From the IMG/VR virus record IMGVR_UViG_3300030060_004838, positions 31,976 through 95,975 of that record: DNA of 64,000 nucleotides; one strand, 5' to 3'. Every line of letters begins with the position of its first letter. Within the stretch, counting starts at the first letter, position 1. The DNA comes from a virus. Shown here piece after piece: positions 1 through 14,489 of the stretch. The notes below the pieces were generated by a model that ran no database searches, was not told where the DNA came from, and saw only the letters and a list, made by a program, of their open reading frames with translations. The position numbers and the translations under genes were made by a program.

Positions 1-81
1 AGTCATGGGCTTTGAAGTAGTTAGTCGCAAATCTCTATCAGAAGAATTGAAAACAAAAGTGAGAGTGTATTTCCATGACGA

Positions 82-291
82 ATGAAGGACTTTAGTAAAT
101 TAACATTTGATGCTATGATTTCAGCATTAATGAATGTAGATGACCAATTTCAGCAATTTGATGACATTTCTATTAATGTCAAGCAAGGCGGCATTCAATT
201 AAGAATGAAGAAGAATTGGAAGGGCGTTTCTATGAGTTTGAAAAACGAGGAACGACTAAGAAGGCATGAAGAAAGCATGTCGGAATACTGA
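82..291 (+). CDS. hypothetical early protein
   Basis: 69-aa ORF whose ATG overlaps the stop of an upstream partial ORF (2..85); followed by a terminator hairpin. Confidence 0.55.
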   Translation: MKDFSKLTFDAMISALMNVDDQFQQFDDISINVKQGGIQLRMKKNWKGVSMSLKNEERLRRHEESMSEY

Positions 292-317
292 TTAAAATCA
301 GGTAAGTTTGGAAAATT

Positions 318-362
318 GAGGGATTTTGGGGCTTTTCGGAGTCCTGAAATCTCTCTTTTTTT
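318..362 (+). terminator. hairpin with UUCG loop plus U-tract
   Basis: GAGGGATTTTGGGGCTT-TTCG-GAGTCCTGAAATCTCTC followed by a T run. Confidence 0.65.
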
Positions 363-448
363 AGGGTGCGTCATTTCCACAAATTTACAATTTAATACTT
401 ACCATATGGTAGGCGATAGCACATTCTACCGCAGGAGGGATAATAAGA

Positions 449-469
449 ATGTTTGATTGTGATGAGTGA
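449..469 (+). CDS. micro-ORF MFDCDE
   Basis: ATG TTT GAT TGT GAT GAG TGA, with GGAGG at 434-438. Confidence 0.45.
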   Translation: MFDCDE

Positions 470-540
470 TGTTAGTTTATTTTCTTATTACCATATGGTT
501 CATGCGTTAGCATATGATGAACCGCAGGGGGGATAACAGA

Positions 541-564
541 ATGTTCTTTGACGATGACGAGTGA
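541..564 (+). CDS. micro-ORF MFFDDDE
   Basis: ATG TTC TTT GAC GAT GAC GAG TGA, with GGGGGG at 527-532. Confidence 0.45.
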   Translation: MFFDDDE

Positions 565-697
565 TTACATCAGTTAAGAACATTTTAATCTGTTACCATA
601 TGGTAATGCTTTGCAATTACCTTAGATTTTTCAAAAATGGTATTTTTTATTTTCCTGCATTGGAAAAAAATACCAAAAAACCAAATATATCAAGATA

Positions 698-880
698 CTA
701 AAAATGGAAAGAAACTCCCCAATAATGTTCTATTGCGCCTCTAAATTTATCTTCATTAAATCTCTCATTATCCTCTTTGAAAAATTGACAAAACGAATTT
801 ATCGTATATTCATCTATTTTCAAATCTCCAAATAAACGAGCCACTATTTCATAATGTCTTTGTTGAAATTTAGGATTCAT
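698..880 (-). CDS. hypothetical early protein
   Basis: 60-aa ORF, last in an overlapping minus-strand chain. Confidence 0.6.
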   Translation of the reverse strand: MNPKFQQRHYEIVARLFGDLKIDEYTINSFCQFFKEDNERFNEDKFRGAIEHYWGVSFHF

Positions 881-1136
881 TTAAATTCCACCCCCTATAA
901 AATGGATAATCAGGTAAGTGTCTACAAATTTGATTAAATGCTACACAATACATATCTAATGTTTCATAAAATGATGGGTGGTCATCTTCTTCATAAATTT
1001 CTTCCATTTGATGAATTAGGAATCTAACAGTCATAAGTATATCTGTAATTTCATCATTTGTGATATTATCAGCATACCATTGTTTTATCATCTTCAATCT
1101 TTTTTCTGTAAATTTTACCATAATATCAAGCCTCAA
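870..1136 (-). CDS. hypothetical early protein
   Basis: ORF overlapping both neighbours. Confidence 0.6.
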   Translation of the reverse strand: MRLDIMVKFTEKRLKMIKQWYADNITNDEITDILMTVRFLIHQMEEIYEEDDHPSFYETLDMYCVAFNQICRHLPDYPFYRGWNLNES

Positions 1137-1404
1137 ATGTAAATATTTTTCTAATATTTTCTAATTCTTCTTTTACAGGTTTTGCACAACATTCACAATC
1201 CCAATCTTCAAGATTACTTAGAATATATAGGATTTGTGTAGAAACTCCTTCACTTCCATATTCCATCCATGCTCTATCCATAGCCAAAAAATATGATATT
1301 GCATATTCTCGGTATGTTGGTTTTTTATCGTTATAGCAATTCTTTGCACTTATTACTTTGAATCTTAGGCTGTATAATTTTCTAAATATTTCTTCCGTTG
1401 GCAT
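1126..1404 (-). CDS. hypothetical phage protein (YxxAM...LYILSNLxxW type)
   Basis: start moved to the ATG (MPTEE) next to the upstream stop at 1406. Confidence 0.6.
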   Translation of the reverse strand: MPTEEIFRKLYSLRFKVISAKNCYNDKKPTYREYAISYFLAMDRAWMEYGSEGVSTQILYILSNLEDWDCECCAKPVKEELENIRKIFTFEA

Positions 1405-1405
1405 T

Positions 1406-1615
1406 TTACTCATCTCCATTAACTTCATTTGTTTTCTCAATTACTGCTTGAATTAGTGCTTCCATATTTTCTTTCACTTCATCAATTGTATCACCTTGCA
1501 CTCTTGCGCTTTCACAAATCCAATTTTTATATCGGTCTTGTTTTAGTTTAACAACAAAATTTTTCTGCACAGGCTCGCTTTTTTCTTCTTCTAAATTCTT
1601 TTTCCAGAATGGCAT
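1406..1615 (-). CDS. hypothetical early protein
   Basis: GTGGTGA SD upstream of the ATG. Confidence 0.65.
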   Translation of the reverse strand: MPFWKKNLEEEKSEPVQKNFVVKLKQDRYKNWICESARVQGDTIDEVKENMEALIQAVIEKTNEVNGDE

Positions 1616-1660
1616 ATTTTTTCACCACATAATTATATTTTGAACGGTTTATGGTTCGTG

Positions 1661-1697
1661 CTTCAAAGTAGCCTTACCATATGGTTCTGCTTTGAAG
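1661..1697. promoter_or_regulatory. extended palindromic element CTTCAAAG..ACCATATGGT..CTTTGAAG
   Basis: core at 1676-1685, about 60 bp upstream of the 1615 start. Confidence 0.6.
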
Positions 1698-1888
1698 AAC
1701 CTTAAAAAATTAAAAAAAATAAAATTTTAAAAAATATTTTTTTGGTGAAGGAAAAAATAATTAAAAACCTTGATTTTTTTTGACAAGAAAAATTCTAAAA
1801 ACTTGTGGCAATTTTTTGTGTGATTGCCAAATCAATATCTACGGGCTTCTCAAAATATTTGATGTATCTAAAGATTCAATCTTCATCT

Positions 1889-2524
1889 TCAATTAGAAGA
1901 TTCATCAGATTCACCTTCGTCATTATCAGATTCTGTTGCATTTTCTTCTGATGGTGGTGGCGCAATTGTCATTCCATCTTCAAGAGAAAAGTTTCCATCC
2001 CAACGACCATCATTGAAATATTTTGTAAATCTTTGATTTACTGCTACTCCACGACCATCTCCGAAATCTAAACCGTTCTCAAATGGTGAACCACCAACCT
2101 CTTTATTTCTATCAGAAATTACAGATGTCATTTGGATAATCGGATTTGAATTCCAAAATTCTGCGTATGCTTCTGCAACCAATTTCTTTAGAGTTTTCAA
2201 ACTTGCTTGAGCGTGTGCTGGCAAATTTGATTCTTTTCCAATTGAAACAGGCCAATCCATAGCCAATTTTCCATCTGTTTTTTCTACTGTCCAATCTCGA
2301 CCTTCAATGAGGATTTGATTCCATAAATTCTTCCGCTTTTCTGCATTTCTGTTTCCTCTACGGATATTCATGTTAATCAATTCAACAGCATCAATAATAT
2401 CATCTGAAGAATTCAAAAATTCTTGATTACCTTCAAGGCTCAAGAAATCCTCAATTCTTCCAATTCTCTTATTCCATGCTTCATCTGTCATTGACAAATC
2501 TTTTTCTTTCTTTTCTTTCGGCAT
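1889..2524 (-). CDS. hypothetical early protein with acidic C-terminus
   Basis: 211-aa ORF, AAGGAG SD. Confidence 0.8.
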   Translation of the reverse strand: MPKEKKEKDLSMTDEAWNKRIGRIEDFLSLEGNQEFLNSSDDIIDAVELINMNIRRGNRNAEKRKNLWNQILIEGRDWTVEKTDGKLAMDWPVSIGKESNLPAHAQASLKTLKKLVAEAYAEFWNSNPIIQMTSVISDRNKEVGGSPFENGLDFGDGRGVAVNQRFTKYFNDGRWDGNFSLEDGMTIAPPPSEENATESDNDEGESDESSN

Positions 2525-2604
2525 ATTTATTTCTCCTTATTTTTTTTCTGTCGCCAATATTTTTTGGCGTAGAATATCATCATTTTTTATTATTCAAGGT
2601 AATT

Positions 2605-2633
2605 CAAAGTATTACCATATGGTTGCAACTTTG
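2605..2633. promoter_or_regulatory. extended palindromic element CAAAGT..ACCATATGGT..ACTTTG between divergent genes
   Basis: core at 2614-2623. Confidence 0.6.
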
Positions 2634-2680
2634 TGAAAACCCTATACCTGAAACCCTCTTTTATTATGTGGTGAAAACCA

Positions 2681-3160
2681 ATGAGTAAAGAAAAATACGA
2701 AACTGATGAGGGCTATGAAGCATTTGTAGCACCTCTTGAAGAATATATGAAGAAGAACAAAGCCAAAGATGCTGAAATGACAGATGCCTATGAGTATGCT
2801 GTGAACACCATCAAAAGAGGTCGAAAGTTTGCTAACAAAAGAAAAAGATGTTTTGACAGTCTGTATGATGAGTGGAACCATCTTAATTTTGAAGGTTGGC
2901 CTTTGAAGAAGTTAGATGATGAAACCACTAAGGAAATTCAAAAGATGGCTGATGATATGGACACACCAAATGAAGATTATTGGAATGCCCTACCTATCAA
3001 ACCTACATTTAAGGTCAAAGGTAAGGAATACATTGATGCTGATGGCAAATCCTTTGCTAAGAGGATGAATGAATCACTTGTGAAGAAATGGACTGTTCAC
3101 GCCAAAGAGAACGGTTCACTTTGGAAGTCCCAAGATGATATACCCACCCGAGAGGCTTGA
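2681..3160 (+). CDS. hypothetical early protein
   Basis: 159-aa ORF, GTGGTGA SD. Confidence 0.8.
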   Translation: MSKEKYETDEGYEAFVAPLEEYMKKNKAKDAEMTDAYEYAVNTIKRGRKFANKRKRCFDSLYDEWNHLNFEGWPLKKLDDETTKEIQKMADDMDTPNEDYWNALPIKPTFKVKGKEYIDADGKSFAKRMNESLVKKWTVHAKENGSLWKSQDDIPTREA

Positions 3161-3162
3161 AT

Positions 3163-3183
3163 ATGTTTGACGATGATGAATGA
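3163..3183 (+). CDS. micro-ORF MFDDDE
   Basis: ATG TTT GAC GAT GAT GAA TGA, 2 nt after the upstream stop; GAGG at 3152-3155. Confidence 0.45.
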   Translation: MFDDDE

Positions 3184-3314
3184 TTGACAAAAATTGACCC
3201 CTAATTTTGCCCATACCCCATGCTGTTTTGGTGATTCAGCACAAAAAAAATCACCACCCTTCGGGGTTTCTTACCACTATTCAAAGAATCGTTTTTACAA
3301 TGTTTATTGTTAGT

Positions 3315-3326
3315 AACCATATGGTT
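3315..3326. repeat. palindrome AACCATATGGTT
   Basis: sixth copy of the ACCATATGGT core. Confidence 0.7.
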
Positions 3327-3854
3327 GTAATTTTTACACCCTGAAAAAAATAAAAAAAATAAAAAAGGTGGTAGAGAAATCATTTAAGATTTTTTTAAAA
3401 TATCGGGGATGATATTTATGCATGATAATATGATACAACAAACAAAGAACCAATTAAGAAACTCTACCATGAGTTATTTGTTGTAAAAGGGTGTGGGCAG
3501 GATTAGGTCGGTTAAACCATAACTTACCTGCAAATTTTCACGGAAACACCTGCTTTTATTCTTGATTTGCAAATAAAATCGGCCGCTACTTCTAACTTCC
3601 CCACTTGAGCGTTTGTTCTCAAATGTTCCCACAGACAATTCGCTAAAACTGTTCACGCTATTAAATCGTTCACAAATGCAGCCTTTGATTATTACGCCAC
3701 TCCTTCTCGATGGAAAGATTAATTGCATTTATCCGCTAAGAAAATCTCGGGAGGAATACCTTAAAGTGTTCAATCTCTTTTTCAGTCACCACAATATCTT
3801 GACCCGCTAAAGCCAAGATGTAGAATATGATTGATTTATAGCCGTAAGGTCATC

Positions 3855-3887
3855 ACAAAGAGATTACCATATGGTTCTAAAACTTGT
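3855..3887. promoter_or_regulatory. palindromic element, core at 3866-3875
   Basis: flanks 3821-3887 resemble 2570-2633 (TAGAATAT...AAGGT...CAAAG...ATTACCATATGGTT). Confidence 0.6.
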
Positions 3888-3899
3888 AGATATTCGAGG

Positions 3900-4460
3900 C
3901 TATCTTCATATGAAGGGGTCGGCAGGAGAGGGCTACCCCTTATAAGTGGGTCGGGGTCGGATTGGGTGTCAATAATTGACAGAATGTAGCAGATTATTTC
4001 AGATAATTTGTTTTATTTATGTAATAATAACCAAAACAATATATAAACTATATCTAATAGATTCAATATATTATTATCTCTTTATTCTTCTTTATCTTTA
4101 TTCAGTTAATAGAAGTAAGTCATTTTGTATTAGATAATTTTCCCGATGGGATTTCCCATCTTTTCCCATTCCTATGAGAAAACATTTTGTTTTAGATAAT
4201 TATATTATCTTAATCATTATGTTTATTTTAGTATCTTTTCCCCTTTTCCCTTTCCTTCCTTACTTACTTACCTTACTTCTCTCTCTATTTATGTATATAT
4301 TTGTGTATATATGTGAGAGGGGTAAAGTGTGGGAAAAGTGGGATTATGGGAAAAGGTATCAAAATGTTTAAGAAAAAGCAATTATCTTATGCAAAATATT
4401 ATCTCATACATTTTGTAGCATGGGATAATGGGAAAAGCCTACATTTTGTATTAGATAAAG
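3900..4460. other. putative replication origin (or terminus/packaging region)
   Basis: noncoding; CATTTTGTWTTAGATAA at 4121, 4183 and 4442 with a degenerate inverted copy at 4382-4397; TTTTCCC tracts left and GGGAAAA tracts right of an AT-alternating core; directly precedes the long + strand block. Confidence 0.55.
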
Positions 4461-4471
4461 TTTTGAATTAA

Positions 4472-4765
4472 ATGAAAAAGACTGAAGTTCTGGTGGACAG
4501 CATGGAAACAAAAAAGAAGATAAAAGAAACAATGGATGAAATTAGGGATTTCCTAATCCAAAAGAATGAACAATATGGCGATTCTGTGATGAACCCAATT
4601 AGGGTTTTTTCAAAAGCAGGAATTGATGAAGGGTTAAGAATTAGAATTGATGACAAACTCAATAGATTAATGCAAGGTAATGATAGCATGGAATCTGATG
4701 AGGATGTTGTTAAAGATTTGATAGGTTATTTGACCCTACTATTAATTCAAATTAGGGAGGAATAA
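4472..4765 (+). CDS. DUF1599/Nmad1-like protein (nucleotide-modification associated)
   Basis: KNEQYGDS...GLRIRIDDKLNRL...EDVVKDLIGY pattern. Confidence 0.7.
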   Translation: MKKTEVLVDSMETKKKIKETMDEIRDFLIQKNEQYGDSVMNPIRVFSKAGIDEGLRIRIDDKLNRLMQGNDSMESDEDVVKDLIGYLTLLLIQIREE

Positions 4766-4776
4766 ACCTGGGAAAA

Positions 4777-4983
4777 ATGAAAATGATTCACTACATGTTA
4801 GAAAATGAATTTAGCGAAGATAGAATTGCTTGGTTTATATTCTTAAATGGTCGTGCTGGCAATTGGCATAAGTGTAAAAAAATTGCAAGAGAAATGAGGA
4901 ATGATTATGAAAATACAAGAAAAGAAAATGAAAATGCAAAACAAACTGAACAAGCAAAAGAAAGAATTGAAGAAGATTCTTGA
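4777..4983 (+). CDS. hypothetical protein
   Basis: ORF in operon chain. Confidence 0.5.
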   Translation: MKMIHYMLENEFSEDRIAWFIFLNGRAGNWHKCKKIAREMRNDYENTRKENENAKQTEQAKERIEEDS

Positions 4984-5302
4984 TGAGATTGAAACTAAGA
5001 AACAAAAAGATATTGCTATATTTGGCAAACCTTTGAGTAATAAAAGAGGTACAGATAAGGCTGAATCTAAGAAACGAGCAATCAAACTAACACAAAAAAG
5101 TTTAGATAAAATTGAAGATGATTTGAATAGAAAGTTCAAACTATCCGCAAGAGATTCTAAGGTTCTCGATTCAATTAGAAACGGAACTAATATTGGGAAT
5201 ACAACTGCCGATGATAAAGGTTCAAAATGGGATAACCGTTGGAATGGTTCATCAGCATCAAGAAGAAATGCAAAAATATATCATAGGAGAGGTACAAGAT
5301 GA
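4901..5302 (+). CDS. basic coiled-coil hypothetical protein
   Basis: Lys-rich ORF; start uncertain. Confidence 0.6.
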   Translation: MIMKIQEKKMKMQNKLNKQKKELKKILDEIETKKQKDIAIFGKPLSNKRGTDKAESKKRAIKLTQKSLDKIEDDLNRKFKLSARDSKVLDSIRNGTNIGNTTADDKGSKWDNRWNGSSASRRNAKIYHRRGTR

Positions 5303-5514
5303 TAGAACCTAAATTAACAAACTGCGCTTTTTGTCAATGTAAATTATCTATTGGAGAAAAGTTTCTTTGTACTGATTGTTTGACTGATGGTAGAAATCTT
5401 TTGAGAAAGGTTGAACAATTAAAAGAGTGGAGGAAAACTCTCGATGAAAAACTTGAAGTAGTCGAAAAATTAGTAGATGATATAGAAAATATCGTTGCAG
5501 ATATGCAGGAGTGA
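5299..5514 (+). CDS. small Zn-finger plus coiled-coil protein
   Basis: CAFC...CTDC; ATGA overlap. Confidence 0.65.
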   Translation: MIEPKLTNCAFCQCKLSIGEKFLCTDCLTDGRNLLRKVEQLKEWRKTLDEKLEVVEKLVDDIENIVADMQE

Positions 5515-5519
5515 AGTAA

Positions 5520-5753
5520 ATGAAATATAAAAGAATCAAAGCAAAAATAATTAAGTTTTTGAAAGAAAATGGTGAGAAGTCTACTATGGAAATATACGCC
5601 CACATTAATCGTATAGATAAGAATGGGATTACAACAGCAGCCCTTAGTAATGTGCTTGCAAAAACACCTGAATTTATCAAGGTTGATACAATGAGAGTTT
5701 CAGGCATGACACAAAGCACATACAATTTGATGATGTGGAGAGTTGAAAAATAA
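5520..5753 (+). CDS. winged-helix DNA-binding protein
   Basis: IIKFLKENGEKSTMEIYAHI...TTAALSNVL...W pattern. Confidence 0.6.
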   Translation: MKYKRIKAKIIKFLKENGEKSTMEIYAHINRIDKNGITTAALSNVLAKTPEFIKVDTMRVSGMTQSTYNLMMWRVEK

Positions 5754-5908
5754 TGCGATTCTAATACTGTACAAAATGTGCAGTATAACATAATGATAAT
5801 TTATCATTATAGCAGACATAATTTACAAGAATCTTTATAGACTCAGTATTTTATGTAAATATGGTGAGGAACTGCCTTAAGTCCAACACAAAAAATGGAA
5901 GTGAAGAA

Positions 5909-6226
5909 ATGAGCAAGAATGTAAATGAATTGGAAACAATGTTGAAGGAACAAGTAGAAGCAGGTCTTATTACGGATTTTGAACTCCGTAGAATTATGAG
6001 TCGTGCAACAGGCGGAGTTTATCTTGATGAGAACCAAAATGCACAATTTGAATTGGCAAAAGAATTCATCAATGAAACACTAACTACTCTATCTAACTTG
6101 AATGTTGTAAGTGAAAAGAGAATGGATAGCACACGAAGAAAAATGGAAAAGGCAATTGTAAAGCATATTACAAGTGGCGGAAATCTAACAGATTCAGGTG
6201 CGCCAATTTGGAACGATGAAGTTTGA
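5909..6226 (+). CDS. hypothetical protein
   Basis: ATG after GGAAGTGA SD (MSKNV). Confidence 0.75.
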   Translation: MSKNVNELETMLKEQVEAGLITDFELRRIMSRATGGVYLDENQNAQFELAKEFINETLTTLSNLNVVSEKRMDSTRRKMEKAIVKHITSGGNLTDSGAPIWNDEV

Positions 6227-13367: not shown

Positions 13368-13938
13368 TTTACCTGTTTGTTCAGTTTGTGGTTGTATTCA
13401 GGCATATAGAATATATGAGGTAAGTGATATACCTAAAAATGAAAAAACATTTAGCACAGACTTAATGATGCTTATGAATGAGTTTGATATAGAAGATAAA
13501 GATGAAGTTATCAAAAATGATAAATATATTTCTTATACTAATATATATTATACTTATGATTTAGCGGAGAGGGCTTGTGCTATCTTATACTATACTATGA
13601 GGGATTTAAATAAACCTGCTATCATGTTGGATTATTGTAAATTTTTGGGATGCAAAACAAGTAGAGTAAGTAGACTTGCAAAAAGAATAGCAAGACATTA
13701 TTCAAATAGTGGAGTGTTTGGTATAAATGATATTGACGAGTTTTTGGATAATATGGAAATCAATAGTAAAGAAATTAGTGAAGCGTGTAAAGCGTGGAAT
13801 GAGCAACAAACCTTGACAAGAGGAATAATTGCGGCATATGTATATGAACACACAACATATACTCAAAAACAAGTGTGTGAAAAATTTGGAGTTAGTTTGC
13901 CAAGATTAAAAAGAAACTTAAGGAAAGTGAGAAAATGA
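13315..13938 (+). CDS. tfb: viral transcription factor B (TFB/TFIIB)-like
   Basis: N-terminal Zn ribbon CVNC...VCSVCG, cyclin-like ACAILYYTMR, C-terminal HTH TQKQVCEKFGVS..RLKRNL. Confidence 0.8.
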   Translation: MPCVNCQAKHLNLNKEINLPVCSVCGCIQAYRIYEVSDIPKNEKTFSTDLMMLMNEFDIEDKDEVIKNDKYISYTNIYYTYDLAERACAILYYTMRDLNKPAIMLDYCKFLGCKTSRVSRLAKRIARHYSNSGVFGINDIDEFLDNMEINSKEISEACKAWNEQQTLTRGIIAAYVYEHTTYTQKQVCEKFGVSLPRLKRNLRKVRK

Positions 13939-14489
13939 AAAAGAGAGATGTATTGATAATAGGCGCAGGTGGAATTGGAAGTTTTCTAATACCATTGTTG
14001 GATAAAGTAGGATTGTATGACATAACAGTTTATGACCCTGATATTGTAGAGGAAAAGAATCTAACATATCAAAACTTTACCAAAGTAGACTTAGAAAAGA
14101 AAAAGGTAGATGCTATGAGTGAAAGATATAATATTGATGCTCAACCATATCCTGTTCTAACAGCAGGACAATTAAAGGGATATGATTTGGTAGTATGTTG
14201 TGCTGATAATTTAGATATTAGAAGAACAATGTATAATTCAAATGTTAAATGGTTAGACTTAAGAGCACAAGCAAGAAACGCTGCTATGATTTCACATTTA
14301 GAAGACCCGAAATTATATACTGTTTTTACAAGTGGACCAGATGGTTCTTTTTCTTGTCAAGGAGAATGGGATGGAAAACCTGAAGGGATTAATTTTATGC
14401 AAGTTGTAATTGCAGGTTATGGCGCACAATGGATTCAAAGATTCTTTACAGGCGACCATGTAGAAAAACACTTTAAAATTAATGGGTGA
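13935..14489 (+). CDS. ThiF/MoeB/E1-like adenylyltransferase (Ubl-activating)
   Basis: IIGAGGIGS, DPDIVEEKNLTYQ, KVDA, CADN..RR, candidate catalytic Cys in SFSCQ. Confidence 0.88.
   Translation: MKKRDVLIIGAGGIGSFLIPLLDKVGLYDITVYDPDIVEEKNLTYQNFTKVDLEKKKVDAMSERYNIDAQPYPVLTAGQLKGYDLVVCCADNLDIRRTMYNSNVKWLDLRAQARNAAMISHLEDPKLYTVFTSGPDGSFSCQGEWDGKPEGINFMQVVIAGYGAQWIQRFFTGDHVEKHFKING

What the first reader, a model, noticed from the sequence alone, without database searches (positions are those of the whole stretch)
399..3185. Three SD-led micro-ORFs conserving an acidic peptide MF(F)D(D/C)DE
Seen: 449-469 MFDCDE, 541-564 MFFDDDE and 3163-3183 MFDDDE. The copies differ mainly by synonymous changes (GAT/GAC, GAG/GAA) and one in-frame codon insertion, and each has a purine-rich SD 7-10 nt upstream. 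Two lie about 40 nt downstream of an ACCATATGGT palindrome as stand-alone cassettes; the third is coupled to the stop of gene 2681-3160. Inference: this variation pattern suggests selection at peptide level, although only three copies support it. Possible functions: mimic of acidic-aromatic docking tails (the viral RPA ends DDDLNYW), a minigene draining peptidyl-tRNA, a signal peptide, or a substrate for the ThiF enzyme as in microcin C-type chemistry (weak, since the E1 is too short for a peptide-recognition domain).
Basis: partly seen in the sequence, partly recalled or inferred. Interest (0 to 1): 0.85.

Follow-up and report, generated by a model that had tools for sequence, protein, structure and literature searches.

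The report
Acidic micropeptide mini-genes, ocean archaeal virus
A marine archaeal virus (magrovirus type) carries three tiny genes of six or seven codons for a greasy-then-acidic peptide; related viruses keep the peptide rather than the DNA letters, and always place one copy at the stop codon of the same viral protein, yet its job is unknown and I found no description of it in the papers I searched.

Summary
Window 449-469, 541-564 and 3163-3183 encode MFDCDE, MFFDDDE and MFDDDE, each with a Shine-Dalgarno (SD) site 7-10 nt upstream. They are the only such ORFs with an SD in the 96-kb record.

The virus is magrovirus-like (PolB, two ATP ligases, RFC; nearest isolates are haloarchaeal tailed viruses).

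The family is large. Searches that did not specify the peptide gave 76 distinct ORF sequences and 51 distinct peptides.
- Start codons interchange (ATG/GTG/TTG), and so do stop codons (TGA/TAA).
- Variation sits at third codon positions.
- None of about 50 homologs defined by their leader alone is broken.

The peptide occurs in three layouts:
- stand-alone cassettes between ACCATATGGT palindromes;
- coupled to or overlapping the stop of the 159-aa protein family (8 of 8 homologs with DNA, 28-71% identity);
- nested in frame, with an internal SD, as the tail of an unrelated 157-aa family.

So the peptide is what is selected. My best guess is a detachable docking tail made in bulk; binding has not been tested. 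A microcin-C-type role is rejected. RNA hairpin gating holds only for cassette 2. One SD-less copy is conserved without a start codon.

This scan found the same family before in other magrovirus genomes (e1-5965745, e1-6005447, e1-5996581). The papers I searched do not mention it.

The parts
318..362 (+). Terminator-like hairpin plus T7 that closes the upstream unit (gene 82-291), so the cassette array is a separate unit
   Evidence: 17-pair stem, T-run; sequence
379..388 (+). ACAAATTTAC element 12-20 nt before the first palindrome of an array; conserved in relatives; possibly a promoter element (inferred)
   Evidence: same element before the first cassette in L017, L038, L041, L043, L045
401..410 (.). 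ACCATATGGT palindrome 1, left border of cassette 1
408..430 (+). Leader hairpin 1 of cassette 1 (GGTAG / CTACC, GC-GAUA-GC tip); its stem begins in the 3' half of the palindrome
   Evidence: across the family the leader hairpin has mean z -1.7, but this copy alone has z -1.1
433..439 (+). Shine-Dalgarno site AGGAGGG, 9 nt before the ATG
449..469 (+). Micro-ORF 1, MFDCDE, stop TGA
   Evidence: The ortholog in L005/L017 has the Cys one codon further on (MFDDCE) behind a nearly identical leader
470..489 (+). T-rich spacer between the stop and the next palindrome; possible oligo-T terminator (inferred)
490..499 (.). Palindrome 2, shared border of cassettes 1 and 2
497..523 (+). Leader hairpin 1 of cassette 2 (GGTTCAT / ATGAACC)
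   Evidence: (z -2.3)
526..532 (+). Shine-Dalgarno site AGGGGGG, 8 nt before the ATG
541..564 (+). Micro-ORF 2, MFFDDDE, stop TGA
   Evidence: same peptide from 5 different coding sequences in relatives
534..594 (+). Hairpin 2 of cassette 2: spacer plus start codon (534-548) pairs with 575-594, with the ORF in the loop
   Evidence: region 494-594: z -3.07, 0 of 200 shuffles; duplex z -3.4
595..604 (.). Palindrome 3, right border of the array
2614..2623 (.). Palindrome between divergent genes 1889-2524 (-) and 2681-3160 (+)
2681..3160 (+). 159-aa protein of unknown function, conserved partner of the coupled micro-ORF
   Evidence: no Pfam, PHROG or fold match
3150..3155 (+). SD GAGAGG inside the last codons (R-E-A) of the 159-aa gene, 7 nt before the micro-ORF ATG
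3163..3183 (+). Micro-ORF 3, MFDDDE, 2 nt after the gene's TGA and in a different frame; no surrounding hairpin
   Evidence: z +0.14
1676..1685 (.). Palindrome before the minus-strand gene block 1615-698
3316..3325 (.). Palindrome
3866..3875 (.). Palindrome, last of the cluster, next to the GC-skew minimum

Best explanation
The three micro-ORFs are real, separately translated mini-genes of a magrovirus-type archaeal virus. Each has a strong SD and makes a free peptide of the form Met, then one or two bulky hydrophobic residues (mostly Phe), then three to five Asp/Glu (sometimes one Cys), ending in a free acidic C-terminus. I read this peptide as a detachable docking tail. In some viral proteins it is the in-frame C-terminal tail. 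In others it is made as a separate product from a start codon placed at or over the protein's stop codon. Extra stand-alone copies between ACCATATGGT palindromes raise the dose. The free peptide would occupy the pocket of a partner that recognises this tail. That partner could be the 159-aa protein itself, another viral protein or a host hub protein. The peptide would then either complete or compete with that contact early in infection. ORF lengths of 6-8 codons fit high-yield repeated translation of one short mRNA. Shown: the ORFs, their signals, peptide-level conservation and the three layouts. Inferred: that the peptide binds a partner, which partner, and the timing.
For: Translation signals vary in the way coding sequence does:
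- Starts are ATG 16, GTG 10, TTG 3; stops are TGA 20, TAA 9; the SD lies 7-10 nt upstream in 28 of 29 stand-alone cassettes. The metagenome set gives the same picture (ATG 30, GTG 18, TTG 1; TGA 34, TAA 15).
- Frame test that does not assume an ORF: of 38 palindrome-downstream segments with at least three GAN triplets, 25 have a stop directly after in frame, against 0 and 0 in the other frames. 30 have an in-frame start within 3 codons.
- 76 distinct coding sequences give 51 peptides. MFDDDE alone is encoded by 6 DNA versions. Variation is concentrated at third positions, with pS 0.80 against pN 0.23.
- Of 51 peptides, 47 end in E or D, 44 have a hydrophobic second residue, and 37 are 6-8 residues long.

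No decay and good specificity:
- A scan for palindrome plus leader plus SD, which did not specify the peptide, gave 63 unique hits. About 50 are followed by an intact acidic micro-ORF; the rest are GC-rich unrelated DNA.
- Control: palindrome pairs in cellular genomes carry the ORF in 1 of 33 intervals, against 27 of 47 in viral contigs.

The peptide, not the RNA context, is what the layouts share:
- Copy 3 has no hairpin.
- All 7 homologs of the 159-aa protein with DNA (28-71% identity) have an acidic micro-ORF at the stop. The layouts are a 2-nt spacer, a TAATG overlap, or an 8-11-nt overlap in another frame. GAGG or GGGG lies 9-10 nt upstream, while the overlapped amino acids vary E/G.
- Two distant homologs carry an in-frame acidic tail.
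- An unrelated 157-aa family always ends M-F-x-(I)-F-D-D-E, with Met and both Phe invariant. An exact GGAGG lies 8 nt before that Met in 3 of 3 DNAs, against a background of 0.63%.

Precedent: ORFs of 2-8 codons can be translated repeatedly without ribosome release (PMC6495379).
Against: - No binding partner is identified and no binding was tested.
- The 159-aa and 157-aa proteins have no family or fold match, so nothing points to a pocket.
- There is no expression evidence for the cassettes. Metatranscriptome contigs cover neighbouring genes but not 400-600 or 3163-3183. This is uninformative for RNAs of 60-100 nt.
- Known acidic docking tails, such as bacterial SSB (recalled from memory) and the virus's own DDDLNYW tail, have the aromatic residue after the acidic run, not before it.
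- The stand-alone cassettes carry a conserved, covarying leader hairpin. A pure peptide story does not need it.
- An SD-less copy upstream of the window is conserved over 42 nt although four relatives have ATA for ATG. Some nucleotide-level constraint on this sequence therefore exists.
- The pN/pS value is biased, because sequences were selected for acidic content.
Confidence: 0.45

Rival explanations
1. Translation itself is the function. A ribosome loaded on a strong SD and a very short ORF stabilises a small abundant RNA, or controls termination or read-through at the cassette, as ribosome binding does for the mccA transcript. The peptide is then a by-product, constrained only by effects of the nascent chain.
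For: Stand-alone cassettes have a conserved leader hairpin (mean z -1.7). In about a quarter of cassettes, including window cassette 2 (z -3.07), a second hairpin holds the SD or start, followed by T-rich sequence. Precedent: ribosome binding to the 7-codon mccA ORF induces termination and makes the RNA exceptionally stable (PMC4231749). In L007 a cassette sits directly upstream of the 211-aa gene on the same strand.
Against: The peptide is conserved in contexts without either hairpin: copy 3, the overlapping copies and the nested copies. The three window copies have no downstream gene to regulate. Hairpin 2 is absent or not significant in 76% of cassettes, including window cassette 1. Mere ribosome loading does not explain the conserved Phe and acidic C-terminus.
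Confidence: 0.2
2. These are minigenes that perturb translation. An acidic run directly after the start destabilises the ribosome (intrinsic ribosome destabilisation, IRD) or causes peptidyl-tRNA drop-off, as with lambda bar minigenes. This would drain tRNA or split ribosomes to help host takeover or to sense Mg2+.
For: Clusters of D/E within the first six residues abort translation and yield peptidyl-tRNA in E. coli (10.1101/2021.02.02.429294). The ORFs are very short, have some of the strongest SDs in the window (exact GGAGG in 1 of 45 long ORFs) and are multi-copy.
Against: The same paper reports that bulky residues near the peptidyl-transferase centre counteract IRD. Position 2 here is Phe, Tyr, Leu or Ile in 44 of 51 peptides. 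Cys replaces acidic residues in 9 peptides. The last sense codon varies among GAG, GAA, GAT and GAC, so no single tRNA is targeted. The nested tail has only three acidic residues behind invariant Phe residues. No data exist for archaeal ribosomes.
Confidence: 0.1
3. An untranslated RNA or DNA motif: the GA-rich repeat serves as a protein-binding site, a kink-turn or an antisense target, and the ORF appearance is incidental.
For: The SD-less copy at window -259 to -239 keeps 42 nt nearly identical in five viruses, with ATA instead of ATG in four. Among close relatives the ORFs are nearly invariant at the DNA level as well.
Against: Across the family the third codon positions are close to saturated, while start, frame and stop are always kept. 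Lengths change by whole codons. There is no Rfam match even at E up to 1. The peptide recurs as a protein tail in unrelated sequence contexts.
Confidence: 0.07
4. Metal-binding micropeptides: the carboxylates, with occasional Cys, chelate a divalent or trace metal during infection.
For: Cys recurs at shifting positions in 9 of 51 peptides, one with three Cys. One variant carries a D-x-D-x-D-G stretch like calcium-binding loops, a resemblance recalled from memory.
Against: Most members have no Cys. Affinity of such short carboxylate peptides for Mg/Ca is expected to be weak (general knowledge). This does not explain the conserved Phe or the link to the 159-aa protein.
Confidence: 0.05
5. Substrate of the viral ThiF/E1-like enzyme (microcin-C-type chemistry), or a tail fused to the 159-aa protein by programmed frameshifting rather than made separately.
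For: A ThiF-family gene exists at 13935-14489. In distant homologs the site TCT-TGA-A at the stop resembles known +1 frameshift sites (recalled from memory), and a +1 shift would append EEED.
Against: MccA precursors all end in Asn, which MccB needs (PMC6495379). Here 2 of 51 peptides end in N, and none in the window. The ThiF gene is 10.8 kb away and only 184 aa. In the window and in L092 no single frameshift joins the frames: a 2-nt spacer follows the stop and the peptide frame is closed by a TGA upstream at 3136-3138. Every layout keeps its own ATG and SD.
Confidence: 0.04

Closest known systems
mccA, the 7-codon microcin C precursor gene (PMC4231749, PMC6495379)
   Same: A functional gene of about 7 codons with a strong SD, carried on a short dedicated RNA inside a hairpin/terminator context. 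ORFs of 2-8 codons allow repeated translation by one ribosome. The product is a free peptide used as such.
   Different: MccA peptides are variable apart from Met1 and an obligatory C-terminal Asn, and lie next to MccB. Here the sequence is conserved, the C-terminus is Glu/Asp, no modifying enzyme is adjacent, and the host is archaeal.
Phage lambda bar minigenes (toxic minigenes; discussed in PMC2490762)
   Same: Virus-encoded, SD-led ORFs of a few codons with no obvious protein product.
   Different: As I recall, bar minigenes have 2-3 codons, act through drop-off of one peptidyl-tRNA species and show no peptide conservation. Here the peptide is conserved over 51 variants, and the last codon varies.
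PeSLs, promoter-early stem-loop cassettes of T4-type phages (PMC2839356)
   Same: A short repeated regulatory motif plus stem-loop at the borders of small genes, confined to a plastic early region. The number and order of units differ between close relatives (window has 2 stand-alone cassettes, L005 has 3).
   Different: The repeat here is an exact 10-bp palindrome in an archaeal virus. Promoter activity is not shown. PeSLs frame ordinary ORFan genes, not a dedicated micropeptide family.
Acidic C-terminal docking tails (bacterial SSB tail, T7 gp2.5 tail; eukaryotic FFAT motif 'two Phe in an acidic tract') - recalled from memory, leads only
   Same: A short hydrophobic-plus-acidic linear motif with a free C-terminus, appended to different proteins and read by a partner pocket.
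   Different: In SSB-type tails the aromatic residue follows the acidic run. None of these motifs is known to be encoded as a separate gene. No partner is known here.
Leader peptides of attenuators and IRD sensors such as mgtL (10.1101/2021.02.02.429294)
   Same: A very short ORF with acidic residues right after the start, embedded in RNA structure.
   Different: There is no regulated gene downstream of the three window copies. A conserved bulky residue sits at position 2. The same peptide also serves as a protein tail.

Membership tests
Microcin C-type precursor (MccA with MccB) | C-terminal Asn, required for the N-P bond made by MccB | tested here: not met
   The window peptides end in E. 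Of 51 peptide variants, 34 end in E, 13 in D and 2 in N. The requirement is stated in PMC6495379.
Microcin C-type precursor (MccA with MccB) | MccB-type E1 enzyme encoded next to the precursor (within about 300 bp) | tested here: not met
   The only ThiF-family gene is at 13935-14489, 10.8 kb from copy 3. It is 184 aa with a partial ThiF match.
Microcin C-type precursor (MccA with MccB) | Strong SD and an ORF of about 7 codons | tested here: met
   SD 7-10 nt upstream; 37 of 51 peptides are 6-8 residues long.
Lambda bar-type toxic minigenes | Toxicity through peptidyl-tRNA drop-off when hydrolase is limiting, specific to the last sense codon | not testable with these tools
   The last sense codon varies among four codons, which argues against a single-tRNA target.
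Transcription attenuator leader peptide | A regulated gene downstream in the same transcript, with alternative hairpins | tested here: not met
   Cassettes 1 and 2 are followed by another palindrome and then by convergent genes. Copy 3 is followed by hairpins and the palindrome at 3316.
PeSL-like regulatory cassette borders | A repeated motif with stem-loop at the borders of small genes, confined to one plastic region | tested here: met
   7 of 7 palindromes lie within 3.5 kb. Hairpins start in the palindrome's 3' half. Unit number differs from L005.
PeSL-like regulatory cassette borders | Demonstrated promoter and terminator activity | not testable with these tools
   The sigma-70 scan is at chance level (15 found, 17.5 expected), as expected for an archaeal host. 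RNA contigs give no transcript ends.
C/D-box or other kink-turn small RNA (Rfam families) | Match to a curated covariance model, with C and D boxes | tested here: inconclusive
   No Rfam hit at gathering score or at E up to 1 beyond two chance-level rows. I saw no CUGA D box on reading the cassettes.
Intrinsic ribosome destabilisation (IRD) sequence | A D/E(/P) cluster within the first residues after Met, favoured by small neighbouring residues | tested here: inconclusive
   The acidic cluster is present. However, position 2 is a bulky hydrophobic residue in 44 of 51 peptides, and the IRD paper reports that bulky residues counteract IRD.
SSB-type acidic C-terminal tail | An acidic run followed by a hydrophobic or aromatic C-terminus | tested here: not met
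   The order is reversed: hydrophobic residues first and an acidic C-terminus (47 of 51 peptides end in E or D). The virus's own SSB-like protein does end in DDDLNYW.

The most novel reading that the evidence does not exclude
Magroviruses encode a short linear docking motif as free-standing genes. The tail is written in frame, overlapping the stop, just behind the stop, or as multi-copy stand-alone cassettes with their own leader, and is produced in bulk by repeated translation of 6-8-codon mRNAs. It would switch or saturate a hub protein early in infection of Poseidoniales archaea. This would be among the smallest conserved protein-coding gene families known, and a case of a 'motif-only' gene.
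Probability: 0.3. Interest if true: 0.85.

Novelty: new variant of a known kind. Interest (0 to 1): 0.74.

Why it matters
Magroviruses are among the most abundant viruses of ocean-surface archaea, and neither they nor their hosts are cultured. A conserved, multi-copy family of 6-8-codon genes is invisible to gene callers. It shows that part of these viruses' early programme is carried by peptides far below annotation thresholds.

The three layouts (in-frame tail, tail split off at the stop codon, stand-alone cassette) give a natural series for studying how a protein tail becomes an independent gene. The fixed pairing with one 159-aa protein family gives a concrete, testable candidate partner. 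Because the peptide can be made synthetically, pull-down and binding tests are possible without a culture.

Tried and rejected
- Nucleotide search of window 1-6000 against the phage collection: no match.
- Pfam and PHROGs on ten neighbouring ORFs: nothing informative.
- Rfam at gathering score and at E up to 1: only a tRNA and two chance-level rows.
- Metatranscriptomes: four runs from one study hold small parts of the region. The contigs laid cover 1842-2521 and 3496-3805, but not the cassettes or copy 3. With contigs and RNAs of 60-100 nt this says nothing either way.
- Structure models of the 159-aa family (pLDDT 81) and the 157-aa family (pLDDT 74): no Foldseek PDB match at E up to 0.001. 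The wide VIA search gave best Z 6.6, on generic helical bundles.
- ESM Atlas: no usable lead.
- Homology between the 159-aa and 157-aa families: hhalign probability 0.4%; the 157-aa family is absent from this genome by tblastn.
- Close homologs of the 159-aa protein carry no attached tail.
- Alternative genetic codes: rejected on reading. TAA stops occur as well as TGA, and long ORFs are open under table 11.
- Hairpin gating as a general rule: rejected. SD/start pairing with downstream sequence is significant in only 24% of cassettes.
- Palindrome pairs in cellular genomes: 33 hits, none from Poseidoniales, so no host link from this search.
- Complex prediction was not used, because a 6-7-residue chain is below what the tool scores.


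Full report
**1. The observation.** They are 449-469 (MFDCDE), 541-564 (MFFDDDE) and 3163-3183 (MFDDDE).
- A degenerate pattern for them matches 3 times, against 0.05 expected from shuffles.
- The window is bases 31976-95975 of a 95,975-bp viral record. A scan of the whole record finds no further SD-led copy.
- SD cores lie 7-10 nt upstream of each ATG.
- ORFs 1 and 2 start 38 and 41 nt after ACCATATGGT palindromes. ORF 3 starts 2 nt after the TGA of gene 2681-3160.
- The palindrome occurs 7 times in the record, all within window 401-3875, against 0.08 expected.

**2. The virus.**
- The window encodes a family-B DNA polymerase, two ATP-dependent ligases, a clamp-loader-type ATPase and a B12-type ribonucleotide reductase.
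- The polymerase's nearest cultured relatives are haloarchaeal tailed viruses, at 24-25% identity.
- This gene set, a size near 100 kb and marine metagenome relatives match the magroviruses of marine group II archaea (PMC5434244).
- Sigma-70-type promoters are at chance level.
- SD-like sites precede 40% of long ORFs against 6% of random positions, and only one long ORF has an exact GGAGG. The micro-ORFs therefore carry some of the strongest ribosome-binding sites in the window.

**3. A large family, found without asking for the peptide.**
- Loci fetched through two neighbouring proteins all contained palindromes and similar micro-ORFs.
- A scan of viral contigs for two palindromes 78-108 nt apart gave 38 loci. 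Of 47 unique intervals, 27 hold an SD-led acidic micro-ORF, in 19 of 34 contigs.
- The same pattern in cellular genomes gave 33 intervals, with one positive. That one lies on a contig with five palindromes that is probably a misbinned virus.
- A metagenome scan for palindrome, 15-40 nt and the SD context gave 63 unique hits. About 50 are followed at the right distance by an intact acidic micro-ORF. The rest are GC-rich unrelated DNA.
- None of the true homologs has a frameshift, a lost start or a lost stop.

**4. Coding-type variation.**
- Starts are ATG, GTG or TTG and stops are TGA or TAA. SD spacing is 7-10 nt in 28 of 29 cassettes.
- In a test that does not presuppose an ORF, runs of three or more GAN triplets downstream of palindromes are followed directly by an in-frame stop in 25 of 38 cases. 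This never happens in the other two frames. 30 of the 38 have an in-frame start within three codons.
- In total, 76 distinct coding sequences give 51 peptides. MFDDDE alone is written in six ways. Third positions are close to saturated (pS 0.80, pN 0.23). The pN value is biased by how the set was chosen.
- 47 of 51 peptides end in Glu or Asp. 44 have a hydrophobic second residue, Phe in 32. 37 are 6-8 residues long and 9 contain Cys.
- The ortholog of window ORF 1 in the closest relative has the Cys codon one position further along, behind an almost identical leader.

**5. Three layouts.**
- (a) Stand-alone cassettes run: palindrome, leader hairpin starting in the palindrome's 3' half, SD, ORF, T-rich spacer, next palindrome.
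- (b) A copy sits at the stop of the 159-aa protein family. All seven homologs for which I had DNA (28-71% identity) have an acidic micro-ORF there. The layouts are a 2-nt spacer (window, L092), a TAATG overlap (L116/L005), or an 8-11-nt overlap in another frame encoding M-x-L-E-E-E-D-type peptides. GAGG or GGGG lies 9-10 nt upstream, while the overlapped residues vary between Glu and Gly. Two distant homologs have an in-frame acidic tail instead.
- (c) An unrelated 157-aa family is found in relatives but is absent from this genome. It always ends M-F-x-(I)-F-D-D-E, with the Met and both Phe invariant. An exact GGAGG lies 8 nt before that Met in all three DNAs, against a background of 0.63% for internal ATGs. 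The free peptide can therefore probably be made from inside that gene as well.
- This confirms the earlier scan note (e1-5965745) that the tail occurs attached or detached.

**6. RNA structure.**
- The leader hairpin is better than shuffles across the family (mean z -1.7) and its stem sequences covary.
- Pairing of the SD or start with sequence after the stop is significant in only 24% of cassettes. In the window it holds for cassette 2 (z -3.07, 0 of 200 shuffles). It does not hold for cassette 1 (z -0.5) or copy 3 (z +0.14).
- Hairpin gating is therefore not the common denominator. The peptide is.

**7. An exception.**
- Just upstream of the window (-259 to -239) lies a fourth unit, between ACCATATGGA variants of the palindrome.
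- It reads as MRDDDE but has CCCTCCGCC, an anti-SD-like sequence, where the SD should be.
- In four relatives its start is ATA, yet 42 nt are almost identical.
- It may be a decayed copy kept for an RNA-level role, such as pairing with the SD or the coding part of the other cassettes. It keeps the RNA-motif rival alive at a low level.

**8. Mechanism.**
- The data best fit free peptides that act as a detachable docking tail. The 159-aa protein is the most concrete candidate partner, because the pairing is conserved down to 28% identity.
- The ORF length fits repeated translation of ORFs of 2-8 codons, as shown for mccA (PMC6495379).
- The leader hairpin may serve mRNA stability; this is inference.
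- Rivals are ribosome-loading RNA elements as in mccA (PMC4231749), ribosome-destabilising or tRNA-draining minigenes, an untranslated motif, metal binding, and E1 substrate or frameshift fusion.
- The microcin-C idea fails on the C-terminal Asn and on the missing adjacent enzyme.
- No function could be assigned to either partner protein.

**9. Novelty.**
- None of the three magrovirus papers I searched mentions palindromes, promoters or small ORFs. No paper holding the palindrome string concerns these viruses.
- This scan has already reported the same family in other magrovirus genomes. I re-tested its main claims here.

Noticed in passing
window 3496-3805: A very abundant RNA in four marine metatranscriptome runs (contig depth about 100-300, against 4-25 for gene 1889-2524). 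It lies between the palindromes at 3316 and 3866 and covers minus-strand ORF 3474-3728 (84 aa) plus about 80 nt upstream. It could be a highly expressed early gene or a non-coding RNA. No Rfam match.
   Followed up: partly
genome 31716-31736 (window -259 to -239, outside the window): An SD-less fourth unit (MRDDDE) between ACCATATGGA variants of the palindrome, preceded by the anti-SD-like CCCTCCGCC. In L017, L019, L025 and L027 the start is ATA, yet 42 nt are nearly identical.
   Followed up: partly
L041:1690 (+) and L013:4876 (+): A second micro-ORF type at the same 48-nt offset from a palindrome, encoding MNNTATTQ and MSNTAST (ATG to TGA) in two different contigs. The palindrome units may carry more than one micropeptide family.
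   Followed up: no
window 379-388: An ACAAATTTAC-like element 12-20 nt before the first palindrome of cassette arrays. It is conserved in several relatives behind a T-run and is a candidate archaeal promoter element.
   Followed up: partly
window 3900-4460: Cumulative GC skew has its minimum near 4000, and gene orientation diverges around 2600.
   Followed up: partly
L057 (NZ_NZTP01000016.1, labelled Altibacter sp. MAG): A 43-kb contig in a bacterial MAG carries five ACCATATGGT palindromes and an MFDDDDE cassette with the typical leader. It is probably a misbinned magrovirus contig.
   Followed up: no
metagenome loci: Longer variants such as MINPDDDIDHDGE carry a D-x-D-x-D-G stretch reminiscent of calcium-binding loops. 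Others carry up to three Cys (MICEDDECDCE).
   Followed up: no
whole record (G000): CheckV rates the 95,975-bp record as 51% complete. Published magroviruses are 65-100 kb, so the record may be nearly complete.
   Followed up: no
L007:4807-5001: In this relative a cassette (MYCDDE) sits directly upstream of the 211-aa gene on the same strand. In the window that gene (1889-2524, minus strand) has only a palindrome upstream. Cassettes move between positions at the palindromes.
   Followed up: partly
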